A DNA stretch of 64,000 bases from Myxococcota bacterium (GTDB taxonomy: Bacteria; Myxococcota_A; Bradymonadia; UBA7976; UBA1532). Location: NCBI GenBank assembly GCA_963169045.1, contig CAUJDF010000075.1:98434-162433 (forward strand). Reading direction: 5' to 3'. How positions within the stretch are numbered: position 1 is the stretch's first letter; the number at the start of each line of letters is the position of its first letter. The notes under the pieces were generated by a model. It worked only from the letters and a program-made list of their open reading frames with translations. It did no database searches and was not told the DNA's origin. Shown piece after piece: positions 7,810 through 17,671 of this stretch. Both the position numbers and the translations under genes were made by a program.

Positions 7810-10800
7810 GTGATGAAGATCGCCTCGAACCGAGAAGACGCCGTCGGGTCCGGCCCGTCGGCAGGCGGGCGCATCATCGACGGCCGGTACGAGCTGGTCC
7901 GGCGCCTCGGCGCCGGCGCCGGCGGCAGCGTGTATGCCGCCCGCGACCTGCTGGCCGGGGTCGATGTCGCGCTCAAGCTCGTCCCCCACTCGGCCGGCGA
8001 TCCGGGCGAGGAGTTCCTGCTCGCCCGGACGCTGGTCCACCCCAACGTCGTCCGCGTGTTCGACGCGGGCCGCGCCGGCCAAGGCGAGAGCTGGTTCACG
8101 ATGGAGCTGCTGGCGGACGCCGACCTGCTCGACGTCCGCGCGCGCCATGGCGTCGAGGGCGTCCTGCGGGCGGCGATGGGCTGCGCGCTGGCGCTCGACT
8201 ACGTGCACGGCCGCGGCTTCATCCACGGGGACATCAAGCCGGCCAACGTGTTGACCGTCGCCGGCCCCGCGGGCGTGGACGCCCGGGTCATCGACTTCGG
8301 CCTCGCCACCGGCGACGGGCTGCGCGGCACGCCCGCCTACATGGCGCCGGAGCTGACGCGGGGCGGGCGCCCCGACGCGGCGGCGGACCTGTACGCGCTC
8401 GGCGTGACGCTGTACGAGGCGCTCACGGGGCAGAACCCGTTCCGGGCGGCGACCGTCTCCGAGACGCTCGACCGGCAACGGGCGCTCGTCCCGCCGGCGC
8501 TCGAGGACGTGCCGCCGCTGGTGGCGGCAGTGGTCGCGCGCCTGCTGCAGAAGAACGCGGACGCGCGTTATCGCGACGCGCGGGCGCTGCTCCATGCGCT
8601 GACCGACGCCGCGCCGCCGGCGGCCGCGTCGCTCGCCTCGGGCGGTACGCCGATGCCGCCGGGCTGCGGCCCGTTCTTCGGACGCGACACGGAGCTCGCG
8701 GCGCTCGTGAAGCGGCTGCCCCCGGCGGGCGGGGGGCTCGTGGCCCTCGGCGGCGGGCCGGGATCGGGCAAGACGCGGCTCCTCGACGAGCTGGCCGCGC
8801 GGGCGCGCCTGCGCGGCCTGCGCGTGCTGCGGGTGGACGGCGCCGAGCCGGCGCCGCTCGCGACGCTCGCGCGGGCGCTTTACCTCTCGGAGGGCGGGCG
8901 GCCGCGCGCCGCCGACGAGACGCCGGCGGCGAGGGTGGCCCAGGTGCCCACGCTGCTGCTCATCGACGGCCCCGAGCGCGCGGACGCGACGGCGCGGGCC
9001 TTCCTCGAGCAGCTGGTGGCGAAGACCCGCAAGGCCGAGCACGTGCTGGTCGTCGTCGCCTCGCGCGCCGTGCAGACGGCGCTGGGGCCGCTGAAGCTCG
9101 AGGCGTTCCGTTCGCTCCTGGCGGCGACGCTCGGCGCGCCGGACCCGGAGGGCCGCCTCGCCGGCCTGCTGCACCGCGCTGCGGACGGCCGGCCGGGGCG
9201 CCTCGAGGCGATCCTCGCGGCGCAGGTCGCGGCGGGCACCATCGCGTGGCGCGAAGGGCGCTGGACGGTCGATCCGCGCCTCCTGCGCGCCGAGCCGGCG
9301 GAGCTGGCGCAAGCGGCGACGGCGGCGAGCGGGGCGGAGGGCGCAGCGCGGCTGTCGGCGCGCGAGCGCGCGCTGCTCGAGCCGGCGGCGGTGCTCGGCG
9401 ACGGCTTCGCGGCGGCGGAGCTCGCGGCGTTCTTCGCGCAGGACGAGGCGGCGGTCGGCGCGGCGCTCGCGGCCTGCGCGGCGCTCCAGCGCGAGGACGA
9501 GCGGTGGCGCTTCGCCGAGCCGGGGCTGCGCGAGGCGGTGTACGCGGCGCTGGCGGCGGAGCGGCGTGGGGCGCTGCACGCCCGGGCGGCCGAGATCGTC
9601 GCGCGTCACCGGCCCGTGGACCACGAGGCGCGGGCGCGGCACCTCGAGGGCTGCGGCCGCACCGAAGCGGCGCTCGAGGCGCTCGAGCAGGCGGCGGCGG
9701 GCGCGGCGGCGGGCGGGCGTCCGGACCGGGCGGCGCGCCTCTTCCGTCAGGGCGCGTCGTTGGCGACGGCGCCGGCCTCGTGGCACGAGCGCGCCGGCGA
9801 CGCGGCGATGGTGGCCGGCGCCTTCGACGCCGCCCGCGAGGACTACGGGAGAGCGGGGCGCGCGCCCCGTGTCCGGCGCAAGCTCGGCTGGGCCTTCACC
9901 GAGGAGGGCCGCTTCGCCGACGGCCTGCCGATCGTGTCCGAGGCGCTGGCCGCCGCGCTCGACGCCGGCGAGACGGAGGAAGTCCTCGCGTGCCGCTTCG
10001 CGACGGGCTGGACGGCGATGATGTCCGGCGACTATGCGCGCGCCGCCGAGGAGGCCCGCCTGGGGCTCGAGGCGGCGGCGGACCGGGATCTGCCATTCGT
10101 GGCGCGGCTCTGGCGCCTCGAGGGGACGATCGCCTGGCACAAGGGCGACGCCGAGCGGGCCATCCGGGCCTTCGAGCGCGGCATCGACGTGGCGGGCCGC
10201 ACGGGCGACGCGGCGGCCAGCGCCGACTGCCAGATGGGTCTCGGCACGGCGCTGCGCATCCGCGGCGATCTCGACGGGGCGGTGCGCGCCTACGAGGCGG
10301 CGTCCCGCGACAACGAGCGGCTCGCGCGGCTGGTGCAGGTCGCCAAGTGTCAGAACGGCCTGGGCATCGTGCACTACATCGCCGGCCGCTGGGACGACGC
10401 CGCCGCCGCGTGGGAGCGGTTCCGCGATACGTGCGTGCGCACCGGGGACCGCTCGGACCTGGTGATGGGCCACAACAACCTCGGCTTCCTCTTCAAGGAC
10501 CGGGGCGAGCTCGAGCGGGCGGAGATCGAGCTCGAGCGCGGCCGCGCGGTGGCCGAGGCGGCGGGCTTCACGCGCGGCCTCGCCATGGTGACCGGCAACC
10601 TGGGCGAGGTGCTGACGCGGCGCGGCCGCCCCGCGGACGCCCGCAAGCGCCTCGAGGAGGCCTGCCGGCTCGCGGCGCAGATCGACAGCCAGGACGAGCT
10701 GCTCGAGAACCGACGGCGCCTCGTGGCCCTCGCCGTGGTCGAGGGCGACGCGGAGCGCGCGCTGCGCGAGGCGGACGAGGTGCTGGCCCTGGCGCGCGAG

Positions 10801-12351
10801 CAGAACAACAAGGGCGAGGAGGGGCATCTGCTCCAGGCGCGCGGCGACGCCCTGCTGGCGCTCGGGCGGCCCGACGAGGCGGCGCGGGCGCTGGCCGAGG
10901 CCCGGGCGCTGCTCGGCGCCCACGGCGGCGCGCTCGACGCCGCGCGGGCCTCGCTGCGGCTCGCCGACGCCGAGCTGCGGCGCGATCCCGACGGCCCGGC
11001 GCGCCTCGTGGCCGACGCGCGGGCCGCCGGCGTGAAGTTCGGCGCCGCCGACGTGCTGCGCGACGCCGATCGTCTCGCCGAGGCGCTGCGGGCGCGCCAG
11101 CAGTCCACCCAGGGCGCGCTCGACACGGTGCTCGCCGTGGCGCGCGACCTGTGCCAGGAGCTGCACCTCGACCGGCTGCTGTCGCTCATCGCCGAGCGCG
11201 CGCTCGACGTCACCGGCGCCGACCGCGGTCTCGTGATCCTGTACGAGTCGAACGGCGAGGTGCGCCTCGGCGGCGCGCGCTGGCGCGACGGCGAGGACCG
11301 CGACGGCCTGGCGCTGCGCATCAGCCGCACCATCGCCGACCGGGTGCACCGCGAGGGGCGCGCCGTCGTCGTCACCGACGTCGAGAGCGAGTCGGACCTG
11401 CGCCAGCAGGCGAGCATCCTGGCGATGCAGCTGCGCACCATCGTGTGCGTGCCGCTCGCCGTGCGCGACCAGTCGCTCGGCCTGCTCTATATCGACAGCC
11501 GTCGGCCGCAGCAGCGCTTCGACGGGCCCGAGCTGGCCATCCTCGAGGCGCTGGCGGCGCAGGCGGCGGTCGCGGTGCAGAACGCGCGCCTCTTCGAGGC
11601 GGAGCGCCGCCGACGCGACCTCGTGGCGATGATGGCCAACGACTTCCGGACGCCGCTGAACGCGCTGAAGCAGGCGGTCGACATGGTGGTGCACACCGCG
11701 GTCGACTTGGACTTCGACCTGCGCCGGCTGCTCGGCACCGTCGCGGAGCAGATCGGCCGGCTCGACCGCCTGAGCAAGGACGTGGTGGACCTCGAGCACC
11801 TCGACGACGGCGACGTCCCCATCGAGCCGGAGGACATGGACGTCGGGCAGTTCCTGATGCTCGCGACGTTCTATGTGGACGCCATGGCGCGCGAGGCCGG
11901 CGTGGAACTGGTGGTCGACGAGATCGCGGGCGTGCCCGAGGTGCGCGCCGACGGCGATCGCGTGAGCCAGATCCTGTCGAACCTCGTCGGCACGGCGCTC
12001 CGCTTCGTCCCCGCCGGTGGGCGCGTCCGCCTGACCGCGGACCTGCTGGACTTCGGCGGCGCCGGGGCGCCGTCGGCCCAGGACGGCCTCGGGTGGTCGC
12101 TGCGCCCCGCGCTCGACGGCCCCTGCGCACGGATCTCCGTCATCGCCGAAGGGGCGAACGTGTCCGCCGAGCAGGCCGCGCGTCTGCTCGCGAGCCGCCG
12201 CGTCAGCGACGACGCCGGCAACGACACGCTGGGCCTCGCCATCGCCCGCGAGCTCGTGCAGCGCCAGGGCGGCGAGGTATGGGCCAGCGATGGCCGCGGG
12301 CTCGGCACCGCCTTCCACTTCACCCTCCCGCTCGCCCGCGGTGCGGCCTGA
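7810..12351 (+). CDS. Multidomain signalling protein: Ser/Thr protein kinase - P-loop STAND/AAA ATPase - TPR array - GAF - histidine kinase (HisKA+HATPase)
   Basis: 1513-aa ORF. It contains the Hanks-type kinase motifs (GAGAGGSVY...ALK, HGDIKPANV, APE), the Walker A GGGPGSGKT, long TPR-like repeats, a GAF domain (...VILYESNGEV...LGLLYIDSRR) and a phospho-acceptor plus ATPase module (MMANDFRTPLNAL...LSNLVGTALRF). The alternative ATG is at 7813. Confidence 0.85.
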   Translation: MMKIASNREDAVGSGPSAGGRIIDGRYELVRRLGAGAGGSVYAARDLLAGVDVALKLVPHSAGDPGEEFLLARTLVHPNVVRVFDAGRAGQGESWFTMELLADADLLDVRARHGVEGVLRAAMGCALALDYVHGRGFIHGDIKPANVLTVAGPAGVDARVIDFGLATGDGLRGTPAYMAPELTRGGRPDAAADLYALGVTLYEALTGQNPFRAATVSETLDRQRALVPPALEDVPPLVAAVVARLLQKNADARYRDARALLHALTDAAPPAAASLASGGTPMPPGCGPFFGRDTELAALVKRLPPAGGGLVALGGGPGSGKTRLLDELAARARLRGLRVLRVDGAEPAPLATLARALYLSEGGRPRAADETPAARVAQVPTLLLIDGPERADATARAFLEQLVAKTRKAEHVLVVVASRAVQTALGPLKLEAFRSLLAATLGAPDPEGRLAGLLHRAADGRPGRLEAILAAQVAAGTIAWREGRWTVDPRLLRAEPAELAQAATAASGAEGAARLSARERALLEPAAVLGDGFAAAELAAFFAQDEAAVGAALAACAALQREDERWRFAEPGLREAVYAALAAERRGALHARAAEIVARHRPVDHEARARHLEGCGRTEAALEALEQAAAGAAAGGRPDRAARLFRQGASLATAPASWHERAGDAAMVAGAFDAAREDYGRAGRAPRVRRKLGWAFTEEGRFADGLPIVSEALAAALDAGETEEVLACRFATGWTAMMSGDYARAAEEARLGLEAAADRDLPFVARLWRLEGTIAWHKGDAERAIRAFERGIDVAGRTGDAAASADCQMGLGTALRIRGDLDGAVRAYEAASRDNERLARLVQVAKCQNGLGIVHYIAGRWDDAAAAWERFRDTCVRTGDRSDLVMGHNNLGFLFKDRGELERAEIELERGRAVAEAAGFTRGLAMVTGNLGEVLTRRGRPADARKRLEEACRLAAQIDSQDELLENRRRLVALAVVEGDAERALREADEVLALAREQNNKGEEGHLLQARGDALLALGRPDEAARALAEARALLGAHGGALDAARASLRLADAELRRDPDGPARLVADARAAGVKFGAADVLRDADRLAEALRARQQSTQGALDTVLAVARDLCQELHLDRLLSLIAERALDVTGADRGLVILYESNGEVRLGGARWRDGEDRDGLALRISRTIADRVHREGRAVVVTDVESESDLRQQASILAMQLRTIVCVPLAVRDQSLGLLYIDSRRPQQRFDGPELAILEALAAQAAVAVQNARLFEAERRRRDLVAMMANDFRTPLNALKQAVDMVVHTAVDLDFDLRRLLGTVAEQIGRLDRLSKDVVDLEHLDDGDVPIEPEDMDVGQFLMLATFYVDAMAREAGVELVVDEIAGVPEVRADGDRVSQILSNLVGTALRFVPAGGRVRLTADLLDFGGAGAPSAQDGLGWSLRPALDGPCARISVIAEGANVSAEQAARLLASRRVSDDAGNDTLGLAIARELVQRQGGEVWASDGRGLGTAFHFTLPLARGAA

Positions 12352-12457: not shown

Positions 12458-15022
12458 ATGCAGACGACGAAGAATCGCAAGGTGATGCGGCGGGTGGCGG
12501 TCGCCCTCGTGGCGGGCGCCGGCGCCGTCGGCGGGGCGGCGCTGCTCGACCGCGCCGACGAGGCGCTCGGCCTGAGCGCCGCGACGCCGGCGACCAGCGC
12601 GGCGGGGGAGATCGCGCGGCAACGGTCGCTGACCCCGCTGCCGGCCGTGCGGCAGGCGCCGTCCGCGCCCCAGGCGACGCGGCTGCCGGCGGCGGGCGAG
12701 GACCTCGCCCCCGGCGCGCCCGAGCCCGAGATGCTCGACCTGGGCGGCGGTCGTGTCCTCGAGGTGGCGCGCGGCGAGGTGCTGCTGCGGTTCGCCCCGG
12801 CGACGCCGGACGAGGCGGTTGCCGAGGTGGCGGCGCGGCACGGCCTCGACGTGGTCCAGCGCGGGCGCGGGACGTTCCGGGCGCGGGCGCGCGGCGAGCT
12901 GCGCGCGGCGCTCGCGGCGCTCGCCGCCGACCCGGCCGTCGCCTCGGCCACGCCCAACGCCATCGCCCGCGGCGCGGGCCGCGGCTCGGGCCGGGGCGCC
13001 GACGTCTGGCGCAGTCTCGAGTGGGAGACCGCCGGTCGCTCGCCGGGCACGCGCTGGTGGAACGGCGCGCGGGGCCACGCCCGGCGCCAGCCCCTCGTCG
13101 CGCTGCTCGACTCCGGCGTCGCCTACGAGGACCACCGGGACGCCGGCGGCCGCTACGCGCTCGCGCCCGACCTCGAGTGCACGCCCTTCGCGGCCGGCCA
13201 CGACTTCGTCAACGCCGACGCGCACCCCAACGACGACCACCAGCACGGCACCCACCTGGCCACGCTGCTCGCCGCGGAGCCGGACTGCGGCAGCCCGCTG
13301 TCGGGCTACGCGCCGGGGGTGACCCTCCTGCCGGTGAAGGTGCTCGACGCGGACCTCGCGGGCACCGAGATGATGCTCGTCGAAGGCCTGCACTTCGCGA
13401 TCGACCGCGGTGCCGACGTCATCAACATGAGCCTGGCGTTCGGCGACGGGTACTTCCCGAGCCCGGCGCTCTCCGAGGCCCTGCTGCGCGCCGCCGAGGA
13501 GGGGGCGGTGCTCGTGGCCGCCGCGGGCAACGACGGATCGGCCAGCGTGGCGTACCCCGCCGCCGCCCGCGACGTGATCGCCGTCGGCGCGTTCCGCCTC
13601 GGCGACCGCCCGGGGCGCGAGGAGATCGTCGCCGACTACTCCCAGCGCGGCCCCGGCCTCGACGTGCTCGGCCCCGGCGGCGACGTCGACCGCGACGAGA
13701 ACGACGACGGCCGGCCCGACGGGCTCGTGGCGCAGTCGTTCGCGCCCGGCAACCCCACCGAGTTCGGCTACTGGGCCGGCGCCGGCACGTCCCAGGCCGC
13801 GGTGGCCGTCTCGGGCCTCGCCGCGCGCGCCATCGCTCGCGGCGTCCCGGCCGCCGAGGTCCGGGCGCTGCTCGTGCGGCACACGGACCGCGCGGCGTTC
13901 ACCGAGGCCGCCGGCCGCGGCGCCGTGCGGCCGGACGAGGCGGAGCGCGCCGCCGACCGCGGCCGCAGCCAGGCGCTCCCCGAGGCCTTCGTCAACCTCG
14001 TCGGCGCGCTCGAGAAGGCGGGCGACGATGTGCGCGCCCGCGTCGCGCTGCAGGTCGCCGGCGACGACCTCGCGCCGCTCGCCGGCGTCGCGGTGCACGG
14101 CCACTGGATCGGCGCCGCGTCGGGCAGCGCCGTCTGCGTCACCGACGGCGAGGGGGCGTGCCACGTCGTGTCGTCGCCCATCGACGTCACCGGTGCCGGC
14201 GTGCTCGCCGGCTTCCACGCCGACCGCGTGGTCATCGCCACCCGCGACGGCGACCTGCCGGTGGCGCCGCTCGGCTTCTTCCGCATGGGCGAGGCCCAGG
14301 CGGAGGCCATCGGCGAGGCCTTCAACGGGCAGGGGACGCTCGCGTTCGCCGTCGACCCGGGCGACGCCGCCCAGCGCGCGCTCTTCGGCAGCGAGGACCT
14401 CGTGCCGAGCGCGATGATTCGGGATCTCGGCCCGGCCACGGCGGTGACGCCCTTCGTGCTCGTGCTGGACCCGCCGTTCGGCGCCCGCTTCGGCCTCGCG
14501 CACCCGGTGGACGTCGAGGGCAGCGGGCTCGGCGCGAGCTCCTTCGATTACGGCTGGTACCGCCAGTGGCGCATGAATCCGACGTTCGGCGGCAGCGGGC
14601 TCGGCGCCAGCTCGCTGACGTGGAACTGGTACGGCATGTGGGGCTGGAACTTCGGCGGCAGCGGGCTCGGCGCGAGCTCGCTGAACCTGGGCTGGTTCCA
14701 GCAGTGGTCGTCGTTGTTCGGCGGGTTCTCCGGCAGCGGGCTCGGCGCCAGCTCGCTGGCGTTCCCGTTCGGCGGCTGGATGTTCCGCGCCGGCTTCGGC
14801 GGGGCGGGCCTCGGCGCCAGCTCCATCGTCGTCAACGACTACCACCGGCTGTTCTCGCCCGGCGCCGGCTTCAACTGGTCGGCTTGGGGCAGCGGCCTCG
14901 GCGCCAGCTCGCTGAACGGCTCCTTCGGCATGCTGACGATGAGCCCGTCGTTCCGCGGCCTCGGCGAAGGCATGAGCCCGCTGCGCGGCGCCTCCATCGG
15001 TCTGCGATTCCTCGGCCGCTGA
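12458..15022 (+). CDS. Subtilisin-like serine peptidase (S8) with signal peptide and a C-terminal Trp/Gly-rich GSGLGASS repeat region
   Basis: ATG at 12458 with a GAGGAG RBS. Catalytic triad motifs are present: VALLDSGV (Asp), HGTHLATLLAA (His) and GTSQAAVAVSGLAA (Ser). The last ~170 aa are novel repeats. Confidence 0.85.
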   Translation: MQTTKNRKVMRRVAVALVAGAGAVGGAALLDRADEALGLSAATPATSAAGEIARQRSLTPLPAVRQAPSAPQATRLPAAGEDLAPGAPEPEMLDLGGGRVLEVARGEVLLRFAPATPDEAVAEVAARHGLDVVQRGRGTFRARARGELRAALAALAADPAVASATPNAIARGAGRGSGRGADVWRSLEWETAGRSPGTRWWNGARGHARRQPLVALLDSGVAYEDHRDAGGRYALAPDLECTPFAAGHDFVNADAHPNDDHQHGTHLATLLAAEPDCGSPLSGYAPGVTLLPVKVLDADLAGTEMMLVEGLHFAIDRGADVINMSLAFGDGYFPSPALSEALLRAAEEGAVLVAAAGNDGSASVAYPAAARDVIAVGAFRLGDRPGREEIVADYSQRGPGLDVLGPGGDVDRDENDDGRPDGLVAQSFAPGNPTEFGYWAGAGTSQAAVAVSGLAARAIARGVPAAEVRALLVRHTDRAAFTEAAGRGAVRPDEAERAADRGRSQALPEAFVNLVGALEKAGDDVRARVALQVAGDDLAPLAGVAVHGHWIGAASGSAVCVTDGEGACHVVSSPIDVTGAGVLAGFHADRVVIATRDGDLPVAPLGFFRMGEAQAEAIGEAFNGQGTLAFAVDPGDAAQRALFGSEDLVPSAMIRDLGPATAVTPFVLVLDPPFGARFGLAHPVDVEGSGLGASSFDYGWYRQWRMNPTFGGSGLGASSLTWNWYGMWGWNFGGSGLGASSLNLGWFQQWSSLFGGFSGSGLGASSLAFPFGGWMFRAGFGGAGLGASSIVVNDYHRLFSPGAGFNWSAWGSGLGASSLNGSFGMLTMSPSFRGLGEGMSPLRGASIGLRFLGR
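14518..15019 (+). repeat. Seven tandem GSGLGASS units, spaced by Trp/Phe/Gly-rich segments at a ~22-aa period, with matching DNA-level direct repeats
   Basis: The protein reads ...GSGLGASSFDYGWYRQWRMNPTFGGSGLGASSLTWNWYGMWGWNFGGSGLGASSLNLGWFQQW...GSGLGASSLNGSF. The DNA unit ggcagcgggctcggcgc(c/g)agctcgctg recurs. Confidence 0.8.
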
Positions 15023-15079: not shown

Positions 15080-17671
15080 ATGTCGCACCCCACCGTCGTC
15101 CTCAAGTTCGGCGGCACCAGCGTCGCCTCCGTCGAGCGCTGGCGCACCATCGCCCACTGCATCGTCGACCGCCTCGGCGAGGGCCTGCGCCCCGTCGTCG
15201 TCTGCTCGGCGGTCGCCGGCATCTCCGACCAGCTCGTGAAGGTCGCCGACCTCGCCCCCGAGGGACGGCACGAGGCCGTCGTCCAGGCCATCGCCGAGCG
15301 GCACCGGGCGCTCGCCGCCGAGATGGGCGTCGATCCGGCGCCGCTCGAGCAGGCCCTCGCCGAGCTCTCGCGCCTCGCGCTCGGCGCCTCGCTGACCGGC
15401 GAGGTGAGCCCGCGCCTGCGCGCCCGCCTCATGGCGTGGGGCGAGCTGACCTCGACCCGCCTCGGCGCCGCCTGGATGGCCGCGCAGGGCATCGACGTGA
15501 CGTGGCTCGACGCCCGCGACCTGCTCACGTCCGCCGATCCGCCAGGCACACCCGCGGCGCGCCGCTACCTCTCGGCGACGTGCGCGCACGACGCCGACGC
15601 GGGCCTGCGCGCGCGCGTCGGCGCGCTGTCCGGCGCCGTCCTCACGCAAGGCTTCATCGCCCGCGACCGGGCCGGCGACATGGTGGTGCTCGGCCGCGGC
15701 GGCTCCGACACCTCCGCCTCGATCCTCGCCGCCCGCCTCGGGGCCGTCCGCTGCGAAATCTGGACGGACGTGCCGGGCATGTTCACCGCCAACCCGCGCC
15801 AGGTCCCCGCCGCGCGCCTCATCCGCGCCGTCGACTATGACGAGGCGCAGGAGATCGCGTCGACCGGCGCCAAGGTCCTGCACCCGCGCTGCCTGCCGCC
15901 GGTGCGCGACGCCCACGTGCCGCTCTTCGTGAAGTGCACCGAGCAGCCGGACCTGCCCGGCACGGTCGTCGCCGACGCCGACGTGGACCGCCCCGCCGGG
16001 GTGAAGGCGATCAGCATGCGCTCCGGCCTCGTGCTCGTCTCCATGGAGACGCTGGGCATGTGGGGCCAGGCCGGCTTCCTCGCCGACGCCTTCGCCTGCT
16101 TCAAGGCGCATGGCGTCAGCATCGACCTCGTCAGCACCTCGGAGAGCAACGTCACCGTCTCGCTCGACCCGGCGACGCAGGTGCTCGACGCCGCCACCCT
16201 CGACCGGCTCGTCGCGGACCTCGCAGCCATCTGCCAGCCGCGCCTCATCCGCGACTGCGCGAGCGTCAGCCTCGTCGGCCGGCACATCCGCCGCATCCTG
16301 CACCGCCTCGCCCCGGCGCTCGAAGCCTTCGAGGAGCAGCGCATCCATCTGTTGACGCAGGCGGCGAGCGATCTGAACCTGACCTTCGTCGTCGACGGCG
16401 ACCAGGCGGACCGCGTCGTCCGCGACCTGCACGCCCATCTGTTCGGCGCCGATGCCATGGCCGTCGATGCCTTGGGACCCACGTGGACGGAGCTCTCCGG
16501 CAAGGGCGCGCCGGCGCGGCCGGTGGGGGAGGGCCGCTGGTGGCGCCACCGCCGCGACGACCTGACGGCGATCGCCGCGCAGGGCACCCCCCGTTATGTG
16601 TACGACGGCGCCACGCTCTGCCGGGGCGTCGCGGGCCTGCGCGCGCTGACATCGGTCTCGCGCGTCCTGTATGCCGTGAAGGCCAACGCCAACGCCGATG
16701 TGTTGCGCCGTCTGTTCGACGCCGGCGTCGGCGGCTTCGAGTGCGTGTCGCCGGGCGAGCTCGCGCACGTCGCCGGTCTGTTCCCGGACCTGCAGGGCCG
16801 CACGGTGCTGTTCACGCCCAACTTCGCGCCGCGCGCCGAGTACGAGCGGGCGTTCGCCGCCGGCGCGACGGTGACGCTCGACAACCTGCACCCGCTCGAG
16901 GCCTGGCCCGACGTCTTCCGCTTCCGCGAGGTGTTCGTGCGCCTCGATCCGGGGCGGGGGATGGGCCACCACCACCACGTGCGCACCGCGGGCACGGCCT
17001 CCAAGTTCGGCATCGCCCCGGACCAGCTCGGCGCGCTCGCCCGCCTCGTCGCGCGCGCCGGCGCCCGCGTCGTCGGCCTGCACGCCCACGTCGGCAGCGG
17101 CGTGCGCGAGCCCGAGGCGTGGGCCCGCACCGGCGCCTTCCTCGCCGACGTGGCGACGAACGGCGGCTTCGCGGCGCACGTCCGCGTCCTCGACCTCGGC
17201 GGCGGCCTCGGCGTGCCCGAGAAGCCCGGCGAGCCGACGCTGGACCTCGCCGCGCTCGACCGCGCGCTCGCCCGCCTGCGCGGCGCGCACCCGCACCTCG
17301 AGCTGTGGCTCGAGCCCGGGCGCTACCTCGTCGCCGAGGCCGGCGTCCTGCTCGCCCGCGTCACGCAGCTCAAGCAGAAGGGCGACGTGACGTACGTGGG
17401 CGTCGACGCCGGCATGAACAGCCTCATCCGCCCGGCGCTCTACGGCGCGTGGCACGAGATCGTGAACCTCACGCGCCTCGACGAGGAGCGCACCGCCACC
17501 GTCCACGTGGTCGGCCCCATCTGCGAGAGCGGCGACACGCTCGGGCATGATCGCCGCCTGCCGCCGAGCCGCGAGGGCGACGTGATCCTCGTCGGCGTGA
17601 CCGGCGCGTACGGCGCCGCGATGGCGTCGCGCTACAACCTGCGCGAGCCGGCGGCCGAGGTCGTCATCTGA
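15080..17671 (+). CDS. lysAC: Bifunctional aspartate kinase / diaminopimelate decarboxylase (LysC-LysA fusion)
   Basis: ATG at 15080 with a GAGAGAGG RBS. The N-terminus has an amino-acid kinase fold (VVLKFGGTSV...) plus ACT-like regions. The C-terminus has a PLP-dependent Orn/DAP decarboxylase fold (YAVKANANADVLRRL...GFECVSPGEL...). Confidence 0.85.
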   Translation: MSHPTVVLKFGGTSVASVERWRTIAHCIVDRLGEGLRPVVVCSAVAGISDQLVKVADLAPEGRHEAVVQAIAERHRALAAEMGVDPAPLEQALAELSRLALGASLTGEVSPRLRARLMAWGELTSTRLGAAWMAAQGIDVTWLDARDLLTSADPPGTPAARRYLSATCAHDADAGLRARVGALSGAVLTQGFIARDRAGDMVVLGRGGSDTSASILAARLGAVRCEIWTDVPGMFTANPRQVPAARLIRAVDYDEAQEIASTGAKVLHPRCLPPVRDAHVPLFVKCTEQPDLPGTVVADADVDRPAGVKAISMRSGLVLVSMETLGMWGQAGFLADAFACFKAHGVSIDLVSTSESNVTVSLDPATQVLDAATLDRLVADLAAICQPRLIRDCASVSLVGRHIRRILHRLAPALEAFEEQRIHLLTQAASDLNLTFVVDGDQADRVVRDLHAHLFGADAMAVDALGPTWTELSGKGAPARPVGEGRWWRHRRDDLTAIAAQGTPRYVYDGATLCRGVAGLRALTSVSRVLYAVKANANADVLRRLFDAGVGGFECVSPGELAHVAGLFPDLQGRTVLFTPNFAPRAEYERAFAAGATVTLDNLHPLEAWPDVFRFREVFVRLDPGRGMGHHHHVRTAGTASKFGIAPDQLGALARLVARAGARVVGLHAHVGSGVREPEAWARTGAFLADVATNGGFAAHVRVLDLGGGLGVPEKPGEPTLDLAALDRALARLRGAHPHLELWLEPGRYLVAEAGVLLARVTQLKQKGDVTYVGVDAGMNSLIRPALYGAWHEIVNLTRLDEERTATVHVVGPICESGDTLGHDRRLPPSREGDVILVGVTGAYGAAMASRYNLREPAAEVVI

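What the first reader, a model, noticed from the sequence alone, without database searches (positions are those of the whole stretch)
14518..15019. S8 subtilase carrying a novel C-terminal Trp/Gly/aromatic-rich 'GSGLGASS' tandem repeat
The last ~170 residues of the peptidase contain seven GSGLGASS/GLGASS units. The spacers between them are packed with W, F, Y and G (FDYGWYRQWRMNPTFG; LTWNWYGMWGWNFG; LNLGWFQQWSSLFGGFS; LAFPFGGWMFRAGFGGA ...), and the period is ~22-24 aa. The underlying DNA also carries the direct repeat ggcagcgggctcggcgc(c/g)agctcgctg. This matches none of the usual subtilase appendages I know (PPC, P-domain, fn3, autotransporter barrel, PEP-CTERM/MYXO-CTERM). A periodic Gly plus aromatic composition suggests a beta-solenoid, an amyloid-like module, or a cell-wall/membrane-interacting anchor, or a secretion signal.
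Basis: seen in the sequence. Interest (0 to 1): 0.65.

Follow-up and report, generated by a model that had tools for sequence, protein, structure and literature searches.

The report
Subtilase tail: beads of private motif
The tail of this secreted protease is a real, translated string of six identical eight-residue motifs, and more than a hundred related proteases each carry their own version of that motif, so it is most likely the enzyme's own cutting site repeated along a disposable tail.

Summary
Gene 12458-15022 (+) encodes an 854-aa pre-pro-subtilase. Its last 171 residues carry six exact G(S/A)GLGASS units plus one decayed copy, separated by Trp/Phe/Gly-rich spacers. The reading frame is genuinely coding (GC3 0.95-0.98). 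No Pfam or NCBIfam model matches the tail.

The tail is not strain-specific junk. At least 125 related S8 proteases from Myxococcota and Bradymonadia MAGs carry 2-10 copies of a motif G-x-G-Φ-x-x-(S/T)-(S/P); one locus carries 28. The motif is identical within a protein and differs between proteins. Spacers vary from 0 to about 125 residues and are not conserved.

In 20 of 114 proteins, and in a 28-copy relative of our clade (L008), one further copy lies where the N-propeptide ends and the mature enzyme begins. All 124 motif-bearing members checked keep the catalytic triad.

AlphaFold gives no fold for our tail (pLDDT 24-43). In a better-aligned relative it places the motifs in low-confidence loops between strands.

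Best reading (about 0.45): the motif is the protease's own recognition or cleavage site, and the tail is a disposable C-terminal pro-region that is shredded on activation. I found no description of this architecture.

The parts
12458..15022 (+). Whole gene: 854-aa pre-pro-subtilase with a C-terminal motif array. The stop codon is at 15020-15022.
   Evidence: The ORF is. The same 854-aa product is called on Logan and NCBI contigs. GC3 is 0.95-0.99 along the whole frame.
12458..12565 (+). N-terminal signal peptide or membrane anchor (residues 1 to about 36: basic n-region KNRKVMRR followed by the hydrophobic stretch VAVALVAGAGAVGGAALL).
   Evidence: Read directly from the sequence. AF2 models a single helix at residues 5-36. 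Whether and where it is cleaved was not tested.
12719..12982 (+). I9-like N-terminal propeptide (residues about 88-175), ending ...VASATPNAIARGAGR. G172 is conserved in at least 90% of the family.
   Evidence: The AF2 beta-alpha-beta fold has pLDDT 80-91. Foldseek top hits are unautoprocessed pro-subtilisin E, pro-Tk-subtilisin, ProN-Tk-SP and fervidolysin. The A1 consensus reads PNxxxxGAG.
12983..13006 (+). Motif-like octamer GSGRGADV (residues 176-183) at the propeptide/mature junction.
   Evidence: It is the best match to the tail motif anywhere outside the tail, rank 1 of 673 windows. It lies in the low-pLDDT junction segment 176-182. It occupies the position of the exact motif copy in L008 and in clade A proteins. 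The family-wide test for degenerate copies is at chance, so this may be coincidence.
13088..13885 (+). Peptidase_S8 catalytic domain (residues 211-476) with D218, H263, N358 and S445.
   Evidence: Pfam PF00082, E=2.3e-36. The triad columns are invariant in A1 and in 124/124 motif-bearing relatives.
13970..14506 (+). Family-specific middle region (residues about 505-683): a beta-sandwich followed by a small alpha/beta module. No Pfam model matches it.
   Evidence: AF2 strands at 511-602 and helices/strands at 612-676, mostly pLDDT 87-97 with 70-80 in the 611-630, 651-660 and 671-680 blocks. Pfam returns only a sub-threshold DUF6732 hit.
14507..15019 (+). C-terminal tail (residues 684-854): an array of six exact motif copies plus one decayed copy, with W/F/G-rich spacers.
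   Evidence: No family hit. AF2 pLDDT 24-43.
14519..14542 (+). Motif copy 1, GSGLGASS (residues 688-695).
14591..14614 (+). Motif copy 2, GSGLGASS (residues 712-719).
14657..14680 (+). Motif copy 3, GSGLGASS (residues 734-741).
14732..14755 (+). Motif copy 4, GSGLGASS (residues 759-766).
14801..14824 (+). Motif copy 5, GAGLGASS (residues 782-789).
14888..14911 (+). Motif copy 6, GSGLGASS (residues 811-818).
14951..14983 (+). Decayed seventh copy and family-type C-terminal end, FRGLGEGMSPL (residues 832-842).
   Evidence: Read from the sequence. Similar G-x-G-x-(V/I/M)-x-P-(L/M) ends occur in relatives.
14580..14724 (+). 66-bp tandem duplication (2.2 copies, 76% identity) spanning copies 2-3. 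It is evidence of recent expansion of the array.

Best explanation
The tail is an array of short linear recognition motifs. It is not a folded repeat domain.

The protein is a secreted pre-pro-subtilase with this layout: signal peptide, I9-like propeptide, active S8 domain, beta-sandwich plus alpha/beta middle region, tail. The tail carries six copies of (F/W)-G-G-S-G-L-G-A-S-S-(L). This is this protein's private version of a family-wide motif, G-x-G-Φ-x-x-(S/T)-(S/P).

I propose that the motif is the sequence that the enzyme's own active-site cleft recognises. After export and removal of the N-propeptide, the enzyme would cut its own tail at these sites, in cis or between molecules. The 171-residue extension would then be removed and shredded.

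Before that, the Trp/Phe/Gly-rich tail would act as a C-terminal pro-region. It could be a tether to the envelope, or a tethered competing substrate that holds activity back. I cannot tell these apart.

Shown:
- The motif array exists.
- It is conserved within each protein and diverges between proteins.
- Spacing behaves like that of a linear motif.
- A subset of proteins carries a copy at the propeptide junction.
- The catalytic residues are intact throughout.

Inferred:
- The reader of the motif is the protease's own cleft.
- Cleavage actually occurs.
- The position of the scissile bond. Candidates are G-x|G-Φ, by analogy with the six-residue spacing after the I9 'PN' motif and a small S1 pocket; or Φ-x-x-S|S as in PatA-type sites, which is unlikely where Pro follows.
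- What the tail does before it is removed.
For: 1. Family-wide private motif. Of 207 S8 hits with a long C-terminal region, 125 have at least 2 and 105 have at least 3 identical motif cores (2-10 copies). L008 has 28.

2. Positional orthology with motif-only homogenisation. In clade B the copies sit at aligned positions across 15 proteins. The variable motif residues are uniform within each protein (LLSSPLG, LGSCPLG, LFSDTLG, LITDPLS and others), while the spacers are not. This argues for one common reader.

3. Spacing runs from 9 to 132 aa, and spacer sequences are unrelated.

4. Junction copy. 20 of 114 proteins carry their own private 5-mer at -65 to -20 from the catalytic Asp, between the I9 propeptide end and the QW(N/H)L start of the mature domain. 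Only 1 carries it in the roughly 8-fold longer remainder. The label-swapped control gives 21/12294.

5. L008 is a relative with our motif type (GLGSSS). It has one copy right after ..YNAIMRAT and 27 copies in the tail.

6. In our protein the best non-tail match to the motif is GSGRGADV at that same junction.

7. All 124 motif-bearing members keep D/H/N/S. BPN' G127 is S/A/T/V in 123/124 and G166 is mostly T/S/A. From established subtilisin engineering this narrows S1 to small P1 residues, which fits G-(A/T/S)|G or S|S.

8. AF2 gives our tail pLDDT 24-43. In P0031 the spacers form strands (ten-residue block means of pLDDT 77-88), but the motif copies fall in the segments below 50. They look like exposed flexible loops.

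9. Synonymous variation among our six copies shows selection on the peptide.

10. [quoted passage not shown] Foldseek places our model next to Tk-SP and the pro-subtilisins.
Against: - No cleavage has been observed. Everything here is comparative.
- Only about 18% of family members have an exact junction copy. Once these are excluded, degenerate junction matches are no more frequent than chance (12/111 against 11.9 expected). The junction match in our own protein may therefore be coincidence.
- Covariation between motif residues and cleft residues showed no general enrichment. The one suggestive signal is confounded by phylogeny: motif position 8 against BPN' positions 100, 222 and 152.
- In clades A and B the motif ends in S-P, which is a poor scissile bond. 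The cut would have to lie elsewhere in the motif.
- Some relatives with spacers of about 30-45 aa (my estimate from the tails printed) show spacer patterns that look like genuine structural repeats.
- A single site would be enough to remove a tail. Why 6-28 copies are kept is unexplained.
- No conserved gene neighbour gives functional context.
Confidence: 0.45

Rival explanations
1. Structural repeat. Each unit of about 22 aa forms a coil or hairpin of a beta-solenoid, beta-roll or amyloid-like module. G-x-G would be the turn and Φ-x-S-S-Φ a strand. The module would serve as an adhesin, an envelope anchor or a polymerising domain.
For: - The period of 22-29 aa resembles curli-type and beta-helix coils.
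- Relatives P0122, P0127, P0137 and P0152 have regular units of roughly 19-21 aa (my count) with a conserved aromatic residue before G-x-G.
- P0013, P0123 and P0130 have back-to-back 9-mers (GDGFASSSL) reminiscent of nonapeptide beta-rolls.
- In P0031 the spacers are predicted as beta-strands.
- The Gly plus aromatic composition fits.
Against: - AF2 gives no fold for our tail (pLDDT 24-43).
- In P0031 the conserved motifs are the least confident parts, not the core.
- Spacing varies from 9 to 132 aa within one family, and from 9 to 42 aa within the single protein L008.
- It does not explain the extra copy at the propeptide junction.
- It does not explain why only the motif is homogenised at orthologous positions.
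- There is no match to the RTX, curli, choline-binding or autotransporter models.
Confidence: 0.2
2. Fused multi-core peptide precursor. The spacers are the products and the motifs are the recognition sequences at which the attached protease releases them. For this protein that would give Trp-rich peptides of about 16-23 aa, acting as antimicrobial, signalling or RiPP-like molecules. The analogy is with multi-core cyanobactin precursors, or with plant BURP cyclases that carry their own core peptides.
For: - Conserved recognition motifs flank hypervariable inserts, which is the logic of multi-core cyanobactin precursors cut by the subtilisin-like PatA (PMC4663559).
- GLGAS resembles PatA's G(L/V)E(A/P)S site (from my own knowledge).
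- The spacers in our protein are unusual Trp-rich peptides.
- The producing taxa are predatory.
Against: - There are no modification enzymes or transporters nearby, and no conserved neighbours.
- Spacers shrink to 0-4 residues in P0013 and L008, so spacers cannot be the selected product across the family.
- The S8 domain is not a PatA/PatG member (TIGR03895 scores 43.7 against a cut-off of 421).
Confidence: 0.1
3. The motif is read by something other than the protease's own cleft. Candidates are a trans-acting maturation protease, a sorting or secretion system, or a Ser/Thr-modifying enzyme such as an O-glycosyltransferase.
For: - The motif always contains Ser or Thr.
- Two paralogues in one Bradymonadia MAG, only 49% identical in the catalytic domain, share the exact motif GNGLGSSS. 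A 70%-identical orthologue elsewhere has GNGLGASS. This hints at a genome-level reader.
- The family also has a conserved extreme C-terminal signature.
Against: - No conserved partner gene is adjacent.
- A separate reader would have to co-evolve with dozens of private motif variants.
- Other same-genome paralogue pairs have different motifs: L009 has GLKSIPLG and L015 has GMLSSPLG.
- All members keep an active protease domain, and the junction copy sits at the classical autoprocessing site.
Confidence: 0.15
4. The tail is functionless low-complexity sequence produced by replication slippage at the 3' end of the gene.
For: A recent 66-bp tandem duplication is present. Copy number differs widely between relatives.
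Against: - The motif is kept identical despite synonymous differences.
- GC3 coding bias is intact through the tail.
- Motif arrays occur in more than 100 divergent relatives.
Confidence: 0.05

Closest known systems
Subtilases with removable C-terminal propeptides or domains (Tk-SP of Thermococcus kodakarensis; aqualysin I, from my own knowledge)
   Same: Pre-pro-enzyme with an I9-like N-propeptide and an extension beyond the catalytic domain. In Tk-SP the N-propeptide is autoprocessed first and the C-domain is then removed (PMC3599501). Our AF2 model's best structural matches include ProN-Tk-SP and fervidolysin.
   Different: Those extensions are single folded domains removed at one site. Here the extension has no predicted fold and is studded with 6 identical motifs (2-28 across the family) that are private to each protein.
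Cyanobactin maturation: subtilisin-like PatA acting on multi-core PatE precursors
   Same: An S8 protease reads a 4-5-residue recognition sequence that is repeated before each hypervariable cassette (PMC4663559). Our GLGAS resembles PatA's G(L/V)E(A/P)S (own knowledge).
   Different: In cyanobactins the substrate is a separate small gene inside a biosynthetic cluster. Here the repeats are fused to the protease, there is no cluster, and the S8 domain fails the PatA/PatG model cut-off.
Proteases whose prodomain junction matches their substrate specificity (kexin/furin, Plasmodium SUB1, plant phytaspase; own knowledge)
   Same: The autoprocessing site at the propeptide junction carries the same sequence that the mature enzyme recognises elsewhere. 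This is what clade A and L008 show.
   Different: In those systems the other sites are in separate substrate proteins, not in an array on the enzyme's own C-terminus.
Curli CsgA, RTX beta-roll and other Gly-rich solenoid repeats
   Same: Short Gly-containing motif with a period of 9-25 residues and an aromatic or hydrophobic pattern.
   Different: No model match. No Asp for Ca2+ binding. Irregular spacing. No confident predicted fold.

Membership tests
Peptidase S8 (subtilase) | Pfam PF00082 match above the gathering score, and a catalytic Asp-His-Ser triad in that order with an oxyanion Asn. | tested here: met
   PF00082 scores 126 bits against a cut-off of 21.8. D218, H263, N358 and S445 are invariant in the family alignment.
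Peptidase S8 (subtilase) | I9-type N-terminal propeptide fold packed on the catalytic domain. | tested here: met
   The AF2 model has pLDDT 80-91 for residues 90-172. Foldseek top hits are unautoprocessed pro-subtilisins. There is no Pfam I9 sequence hit; relatives carry PF22148.
Subtilases with an autoprocessed C-terminal pro-region (Tk-SP / aqualysin type) | The C-terminal extension is removed by the enzyme itself during maturation. | not testable with these tools
   The extension is present (residues 477-854). Its removal can only be shown biochemically.
T7SS mycosin (TIGR03921) | Score above the NCBIfam equivalog cut-off. | tested here: not met
   120.4 bits against a cut-off of 278.75.
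PatA/PatG cyanobactin proteases (TIGR03895) | Score above the cut-off, and a cyanobactin cluster context (PatE-type precursor, PatD, DUF domain). | tested here: not met
   43.7 bits against a cut-off of 421.05. The neighbours are a kinase/histidine-kinase giant gene and a LysC-LysA fusion.
Autotransporter subtilases (type Va) | C-terminal 12-strand beta-barrel translocator domain of about 250-300 aa. | tested here: not met
   No Pfam hit in the tail at E<=10. The tail is only 171 aa. AF2 predicts no strands there.
Usual subtilase appendages and sorting tags (PPC, P-domain, fn3, PEP-CTERM, MYXO-CTERM) | Match to the corresponding Pfam or NCBIfam model. | tested here: not met
   The full-length and in-frame tail scans return only S8 models.
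RTX / beta-roll nonapeptide repeats | GGxGxDxUx nonapeptides in tandem with the Ca2+-binding Asp, and a HemolysinCabind match. | tested here: not met
   No Pfam match. The motif has no Asp. The period is 22-29 aa.
Curli / functional amyloid repeats | Regular strand-turn-strand units of about 19-23 aa with conserved Gln/Asn/Ser ladders, confidently modelled as a beta-solenoid. | tested here: inconclusive
   No model match. AF2 pLDDT is 24-43 with a shallow alignment, which does not exclude an amyloid-type fold.

The most novel reading that the evidence does not exclude
These Myxococcota and Bradymonadia subtilases are self-contained protease-substrate pairs with a private code. Each enzyme has co-evolved with an array of its own cleavage motifs fused to its C-terminus, and in some lineages also with the motif at its propeptide junction. 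The array would work as a built-in consumable: a tethered competing substrate or anchor whose copy number (2-28) sets how long the enzyme stays latent or attached. It might also work as a dispenser of short peptides. I found no described subtilase, or other bacterial protease, organised in this way.
Probability: 0.35. Interest if true: 0.75.

Novelty: new variant of a known kind. Interest (0 to 1): 0.62.

Why it matters
If the motif is the enzyme's own site, this family offers more than a hundred natural pairs of protease and recognition sequence, with motifs that differ by one to three residues. That would be a ready-made data set for how subtilase specificity evolves, and a source of orthogonal protease/tag pairs.

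It would also add a new way of regulating a secreted protease: a multi-copy, self-destructing C-terminal pro-region. The bacteria involved (Myxococcota, Bradymonadia) are groups in which extracellular proteolysis is central to predation.

Even if the cleavage idea is wrong, the C-terminal architecture is widespread, has no Pfam or NCBIfam model, and deserves a family definition.

Tried and rejected
1. My first tail-only queries (the second protein) were out of frame and are void. They were repeated in frame.

2. The in-frame tail-only homology search found nothing. It did not even return the source protein, so it is uninformative. The likely cause is low-complexity word saturation.

3. A metagenome scan with patterns derived from the tail spacers found no relative.

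4. A test for a degenerate motif at the propeptide junction across the family came out at chance once exact copies are removed. I do not claim the junction copy for clades B and C in general.

5. Mutual information between motif positions and catalytic-domain columns showed no enrichment of cleft residues.

6. Conserved gene neighbourhood: none. A Pkinase-AAA-TPR-GAF-HK giant gene lies next door both here and beside P0018, but not beside P0005 or P0020.

7. Aligning the propeptide junction to solved pro-subtilisins by sequence failed. The position of the scissile bond therefore rests on analogy.

8. Literature searches found no description of this architecture.

9. Rejected on domain scans and AF2: autotransporter barrel, RTX, choline-binding repeats and CTERM sorting tags.
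Full report
**1. What is in the window**

The finding lies at the 3' end of a gene on the + strand. The longest ORF opens at 12290. Gene callers on two independent assemblies start the product at 12458 (MQTTKNRK...), which gives 854 aa ending at the stop codon 15020-15022.

Pfam finds one domain, Peptidase_S8 at residues 211-476 (E=2.3e-36). NCBIfam gives only sub-threshold S8 models: mycosin at 120 bits against a cut-off of 279, and PatA/PatG at 44 bits against 421.

The last 171 residues (684-854, window 14507-15019) read VDVE-GSGLGASS-FDYGWYRQWRMNPTFG-GSGLGASS-LTWNWYGMWGWNFG-GSGLGASS-.... There are six exact GLGASS. Five are GSGLGASS and one is GAGLGASS. They start at 14519, 14591, 14657, 14732, 14801 and 14888. 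A decayed seventh copy, FRGLGEGMSPL, lies near the end.

The period is 22-29 aa. The composition is 23% Gly, 16% Ser, 6.4% Trp and 8.8% Phe, with almost no charge.

TRF reports a 66-bp unit across copies 2-3.

Third-position GC stays at 0.95-0.98 through the tail in the gene's frame, so the tail is translated. The copies differ at synonymous sites, so the peptide identity is under selection.

A caveat on my own work. My first tail-only queries (part) were out of frame and are void. The in-frame repeats (against Pfam at E<=10) and the full-length scans still give no family for the tail.

**2. The rest of the protein**

AlphaFold2, run with a 52-sequence family alignment, models residues 80-683 confidently.
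- There is an N-terminal helix at residues 5-36, a signal peptide or anchor.
- There is an I9-like propeptide at about residues 90-175.
- The catalytic domain has D218, H263, N358 and S445, all invariant in the alignment.
- A beta-sandwich and a small alpha/beta module follow, up to residue 683.

Foldseek places the model next to unautoprocessed pro-subtilisin E, pro-Tk-subtilisin, ProN-Tk-SP and fervidolysin.

The tail (684-854) has pLDDT 24-43, so no fold is predicted. The propeptide/mature junction (176-182) is also below 50.

**3. Relatives: the conserved thing is a private motif**

A full-length search returned about 60 proteins with a similar architecture, 700-950 aa long, from Myxococcota, Bradymonadia and 'Deltaproteobacteria' MAGs. 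An exhaustive phmmer search of 1.8 billion representatives gave 995 hits at E<1e-30.

Reading their C-termini shows the key fact. Almost every one carries a short motif of the form G-x-G-Φ-x-x-(S/T)-(S/P), repeated several times. The motif is identical within a protein and different between proteins. Examples:
- GSGLGASS (ours), GTGLGASS, GNGLGSSS
- GTGIGTSP, GQGIATSP, GTGVSTSP
- GTGLLSSPLG, GTGLGSCPLG, GSGLITDPLS
- GDGFASSSL, GSGFSSSTVNV, GAGMASSAI

Of 207 hits with a long C-terminal region, 125 have at least 2 and 105 have at least 3 identical cores. The median is 4 copies, the maximum in these sets is 10, and spacing runs from 9 to 132 aa.

The spacers are not conserved. The Trp-rich spacers of our protein have no counterpart even in the nearest relatives (P0002 and P0003, 55-59% identical in the catalytic domain). 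In P0013, P0123 and P0130 there are no spacers at all: the 9-mers are back to back.

In clade B the copies sit at aligned, positionally orthologous places across 15 proteins. The two or three variable motif residues are nevertheless uniform within each protein, while the neighbouring spacer residues are not. Homogenisation confined to the motif, at orthologous positions, is what a single common reader would produce. Unequal crossing-over alone would also homogenise the spacers.

**4. A copy at the autoprocessing site**

In 18 of the first 58 relatives, the protein's own private 5-mer occurs once more, 33-43 residues before the catalytic Asp. The N-terminal sequences show that this lies between the end of the I9 propeptide (...PN/RN-x4-G-A/T) and the QW(N/H)L start of the mature domain.

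Over the larger set:
- 20 of 114 proteins have their own 5-mer in this junction window.
- 1 protein has it in the roughly 8-fold longer remainder.
- When motifs are swapped between proteins, the rate is 21/12294.

The junction copy tracks rare variants, such as GIETSPG, GAGTSPG, GVGPSPL and GVSTSPT.

A relative carrying our own motif type also shows this. L008 comes from a Bradymonadia MAG that also encodes P0005. It has GLGSSS once right after ..SYNAIMRAT and 27 times in its tail, with spacing of 9-42 aa.

In our protein the same position reads PN-AIARGA-GRGSGRGADV. GSGRGADV is the best match to the tail motif anywhere outside the tail, rank 1 of 673 windows.

The limit of this argument must be stated. 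Once exact copies are excluded, the family as a whole shows no more junction matches than chance (12/111 against 11.9 expected). The junction link is therefore solid for clade A and L008 and only suggestive for our protein.

What all clades share at the junction is G-(A/T/S)-G. G172 is at least 90% conserved. This is also the first half of the C-terminal motif.

**5. Other tests**

- All 124 motif-bearing proteins examined keep D32, H64, N155 and S221 in BPN' numbering. There are no pseudo-proteases with arrays.
- The positions equivalent to BPN' G127 and G166, which line the S1 pocket, are S/A/T/V (123/124) and mostly T/S/A. From the subtilisin engineering literature (own knowledge), this predicts a narrow S1 pocket that takes small P1 residues. 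That is compatible with cutting at G-(A/T/S)|G or after Ser.
- AlphaFold2 of the clade B representative P0031 predicts the spacers as beta-strands with ten-residue block means of pLDDT 77-88. The motif copies fall in the segments below 50 (595-599, 629-635, 671-673, 689-704). The most conserved residues are modelled as exposed, flexible loops.
- Covariation between motif positions and cleft columns showed no general enrichment. For motif position 8 (Pro against Ser) the three top columns are BPN' 100, 222 and 152, all in the cleft, but this coincides with the deepest clade split.
- Gene neighbourhoods are not conserved.
- Two paralogues in one MAG, 49% identical in the catalytic domain, share GNGLGSSS. 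A 70%-identical orthologue elsewhere has GNGLGASS. This is a weak hint of genome-level matching. Another same-genome pair has different motifs (L009 and L015).

**6. Interpretation**

The tail behaves as an array of linear motifs. The motifs are most simply read by the active site of the protease that carries them.
- The junction copy lies where subtilases cut themselves.
- The motif is private to each enzyme.
- The enzyme is always catalytically intact.
- The motif sits in loops.
- The spacing is free.

I therefore propose that the 171-residue tail is a C-terminal pro-region that the enzyme removes and shreds at the G(S/A)GLGASS sites after export and N-propeptide release. Tk-SP offers a precedent: it loses its N-propeptide first and then its C-domain (PMC3599501). 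The novelty here is a multi-copy, sequence-coded set of sites.

What the tail does before removal is inferred only. The uncharged Trp/Phe/Gly spacers would suit interfacial binding to the envelope, giving a self-releasing tether. A string of tethered cognate sites would also compete with other substrates and delay activity.

The scissile bond is not determined. The spacing after the I9 'PN' motif is six residues, as in subtilisin E (own knowledge). Together with the small S1 pocket, this favours G-x|G-Φ. A PatA-like cut after ...A-S is possible for our clade but unlikely where Pro follows.

I give this explanation about 0.45.

**7. Rivals**

- **Structural solenoid, roll or amyloid (about 0.2).** It fits the period of 22-29 aa and the more regular relatives. 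It does not explain the junction copy, the free spacing or the low-confidence motifs.
- **Fused multi-core peptide precursor (about 0.1).** This borrows the logic of cyanobactin PatA/PatE (PMC4663559). It lacks any cluster context, and spacers vanish in some members.
- **An external reader (about 0.15).** This could be a trans protease, a sorting system or a Ser/Thr modification. It would need a co-evolving partner that is not seen nearby.
- **Slippage junk (about 0.05).** This is contradicted by selection on the peptide and by the breadth of the family.

**8. Novelty**

The enzyme class and the idea of a removable C-terminal extension are known. What I found described nowhere is the architecture itself: a private motif repeated 2-28 times on the C-terminus and, in part of the family, present at the propeptide junction. 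It has no Pfam or NCBIfam model, and five literature searches turned up nothing.

I rate it a new variant of a known kind, with interest 0.62. The claim that matters, self-recognition, is directly testable with one recombinant protein and its S445A mutant.

Noticed in passing
L008:5869-9597 (Bradymonadia MAG Ske_MAG24, contig JBKAGE010000070.1): A relative of about 1200 aa has 28 exact GLGSSS. One lies at the propeptide junction and 27 lie in the tail, alternating between 'QGN-GLGSSS' and 'VM-GLGSSS' flavours with spacers as short as 3-7 residues. The same MAG also encodes P0005 (L003), which has GNGLGSSS three times.
   Followed up: partly
window 14951-15019, and the C-termini of P0004, P0005, P0007, P0020, P0021, P0121, P0142, P0158: Family members end in a loosely conserved signature, G-x-G-x-(V/I/M)-x-P-(L/M)-(P/R). 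Ours reads GLGEGMSPLR; others read ..GVGVRLLP, ..GAGEGIPLP, ..QVGLVPLR. It could be the ancestral last motif copy or a C-terminal sorting or secretion signal.
   Followed up: no
window 7810-12351 (+): Immediately upstream is a 1513-aa Ser/Thr kinase-AAA_16-TPR-GAF-HisKA-HATPase_c fusion. A protein of the same architecture, though without a recorded HisKA hit, lies next to the family member P0018 in L005 on the opposite strand. It is not next to P0005 or P0020.
   Followed up: partly
window 15080-17671 (+): Downstream is an 863-aa fusion of aspartokinase (AA_kinase plus ACT) with diaminopimelate/ornithine-type decarboxylase domains. This puts the first and last steps of lysine synthesis on one polypeptide.
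   Followed up: no
window 14548-14835 (-): A 95-aa antisense ORF mirrors the repeat (SELAPSPLP three times). It is a by-product of the repeat in 75% GC DNA. GC3 supports the + frame.
   Followed up: yes
P0013, P0123, P0130, P0135 (C-termini): Some members have 8-11 back-to-back nonapeptides (GDGFASSSL, GTGFASSSL, GSGFAASSL) with no spacers. This is the motif array in its most compact form, and superficially like a beta-roll.
   Followed up: no
P0008, P0012, P0014, P0019, P0024, P0040 and similar: A sub-clade has only one clear copy (G-x-G-I-A-T-S-P) plus a degenerate 'ATGLG(D/E)TPL' and a Cys-containing insert. It may be a reduced or ancestral state of the array.
   Followed up: no
loci L006, L007, L009, L011, L015: Several high-GC MAG contigs carrying family members are labelled 'uncultured Enterobacterales/Enterobacteriaceae/Rickettsiales' in their record titles. 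Given their gene content, these are probably taxonomic mislabels of Myxococcota-like bins.
   Followed up: no
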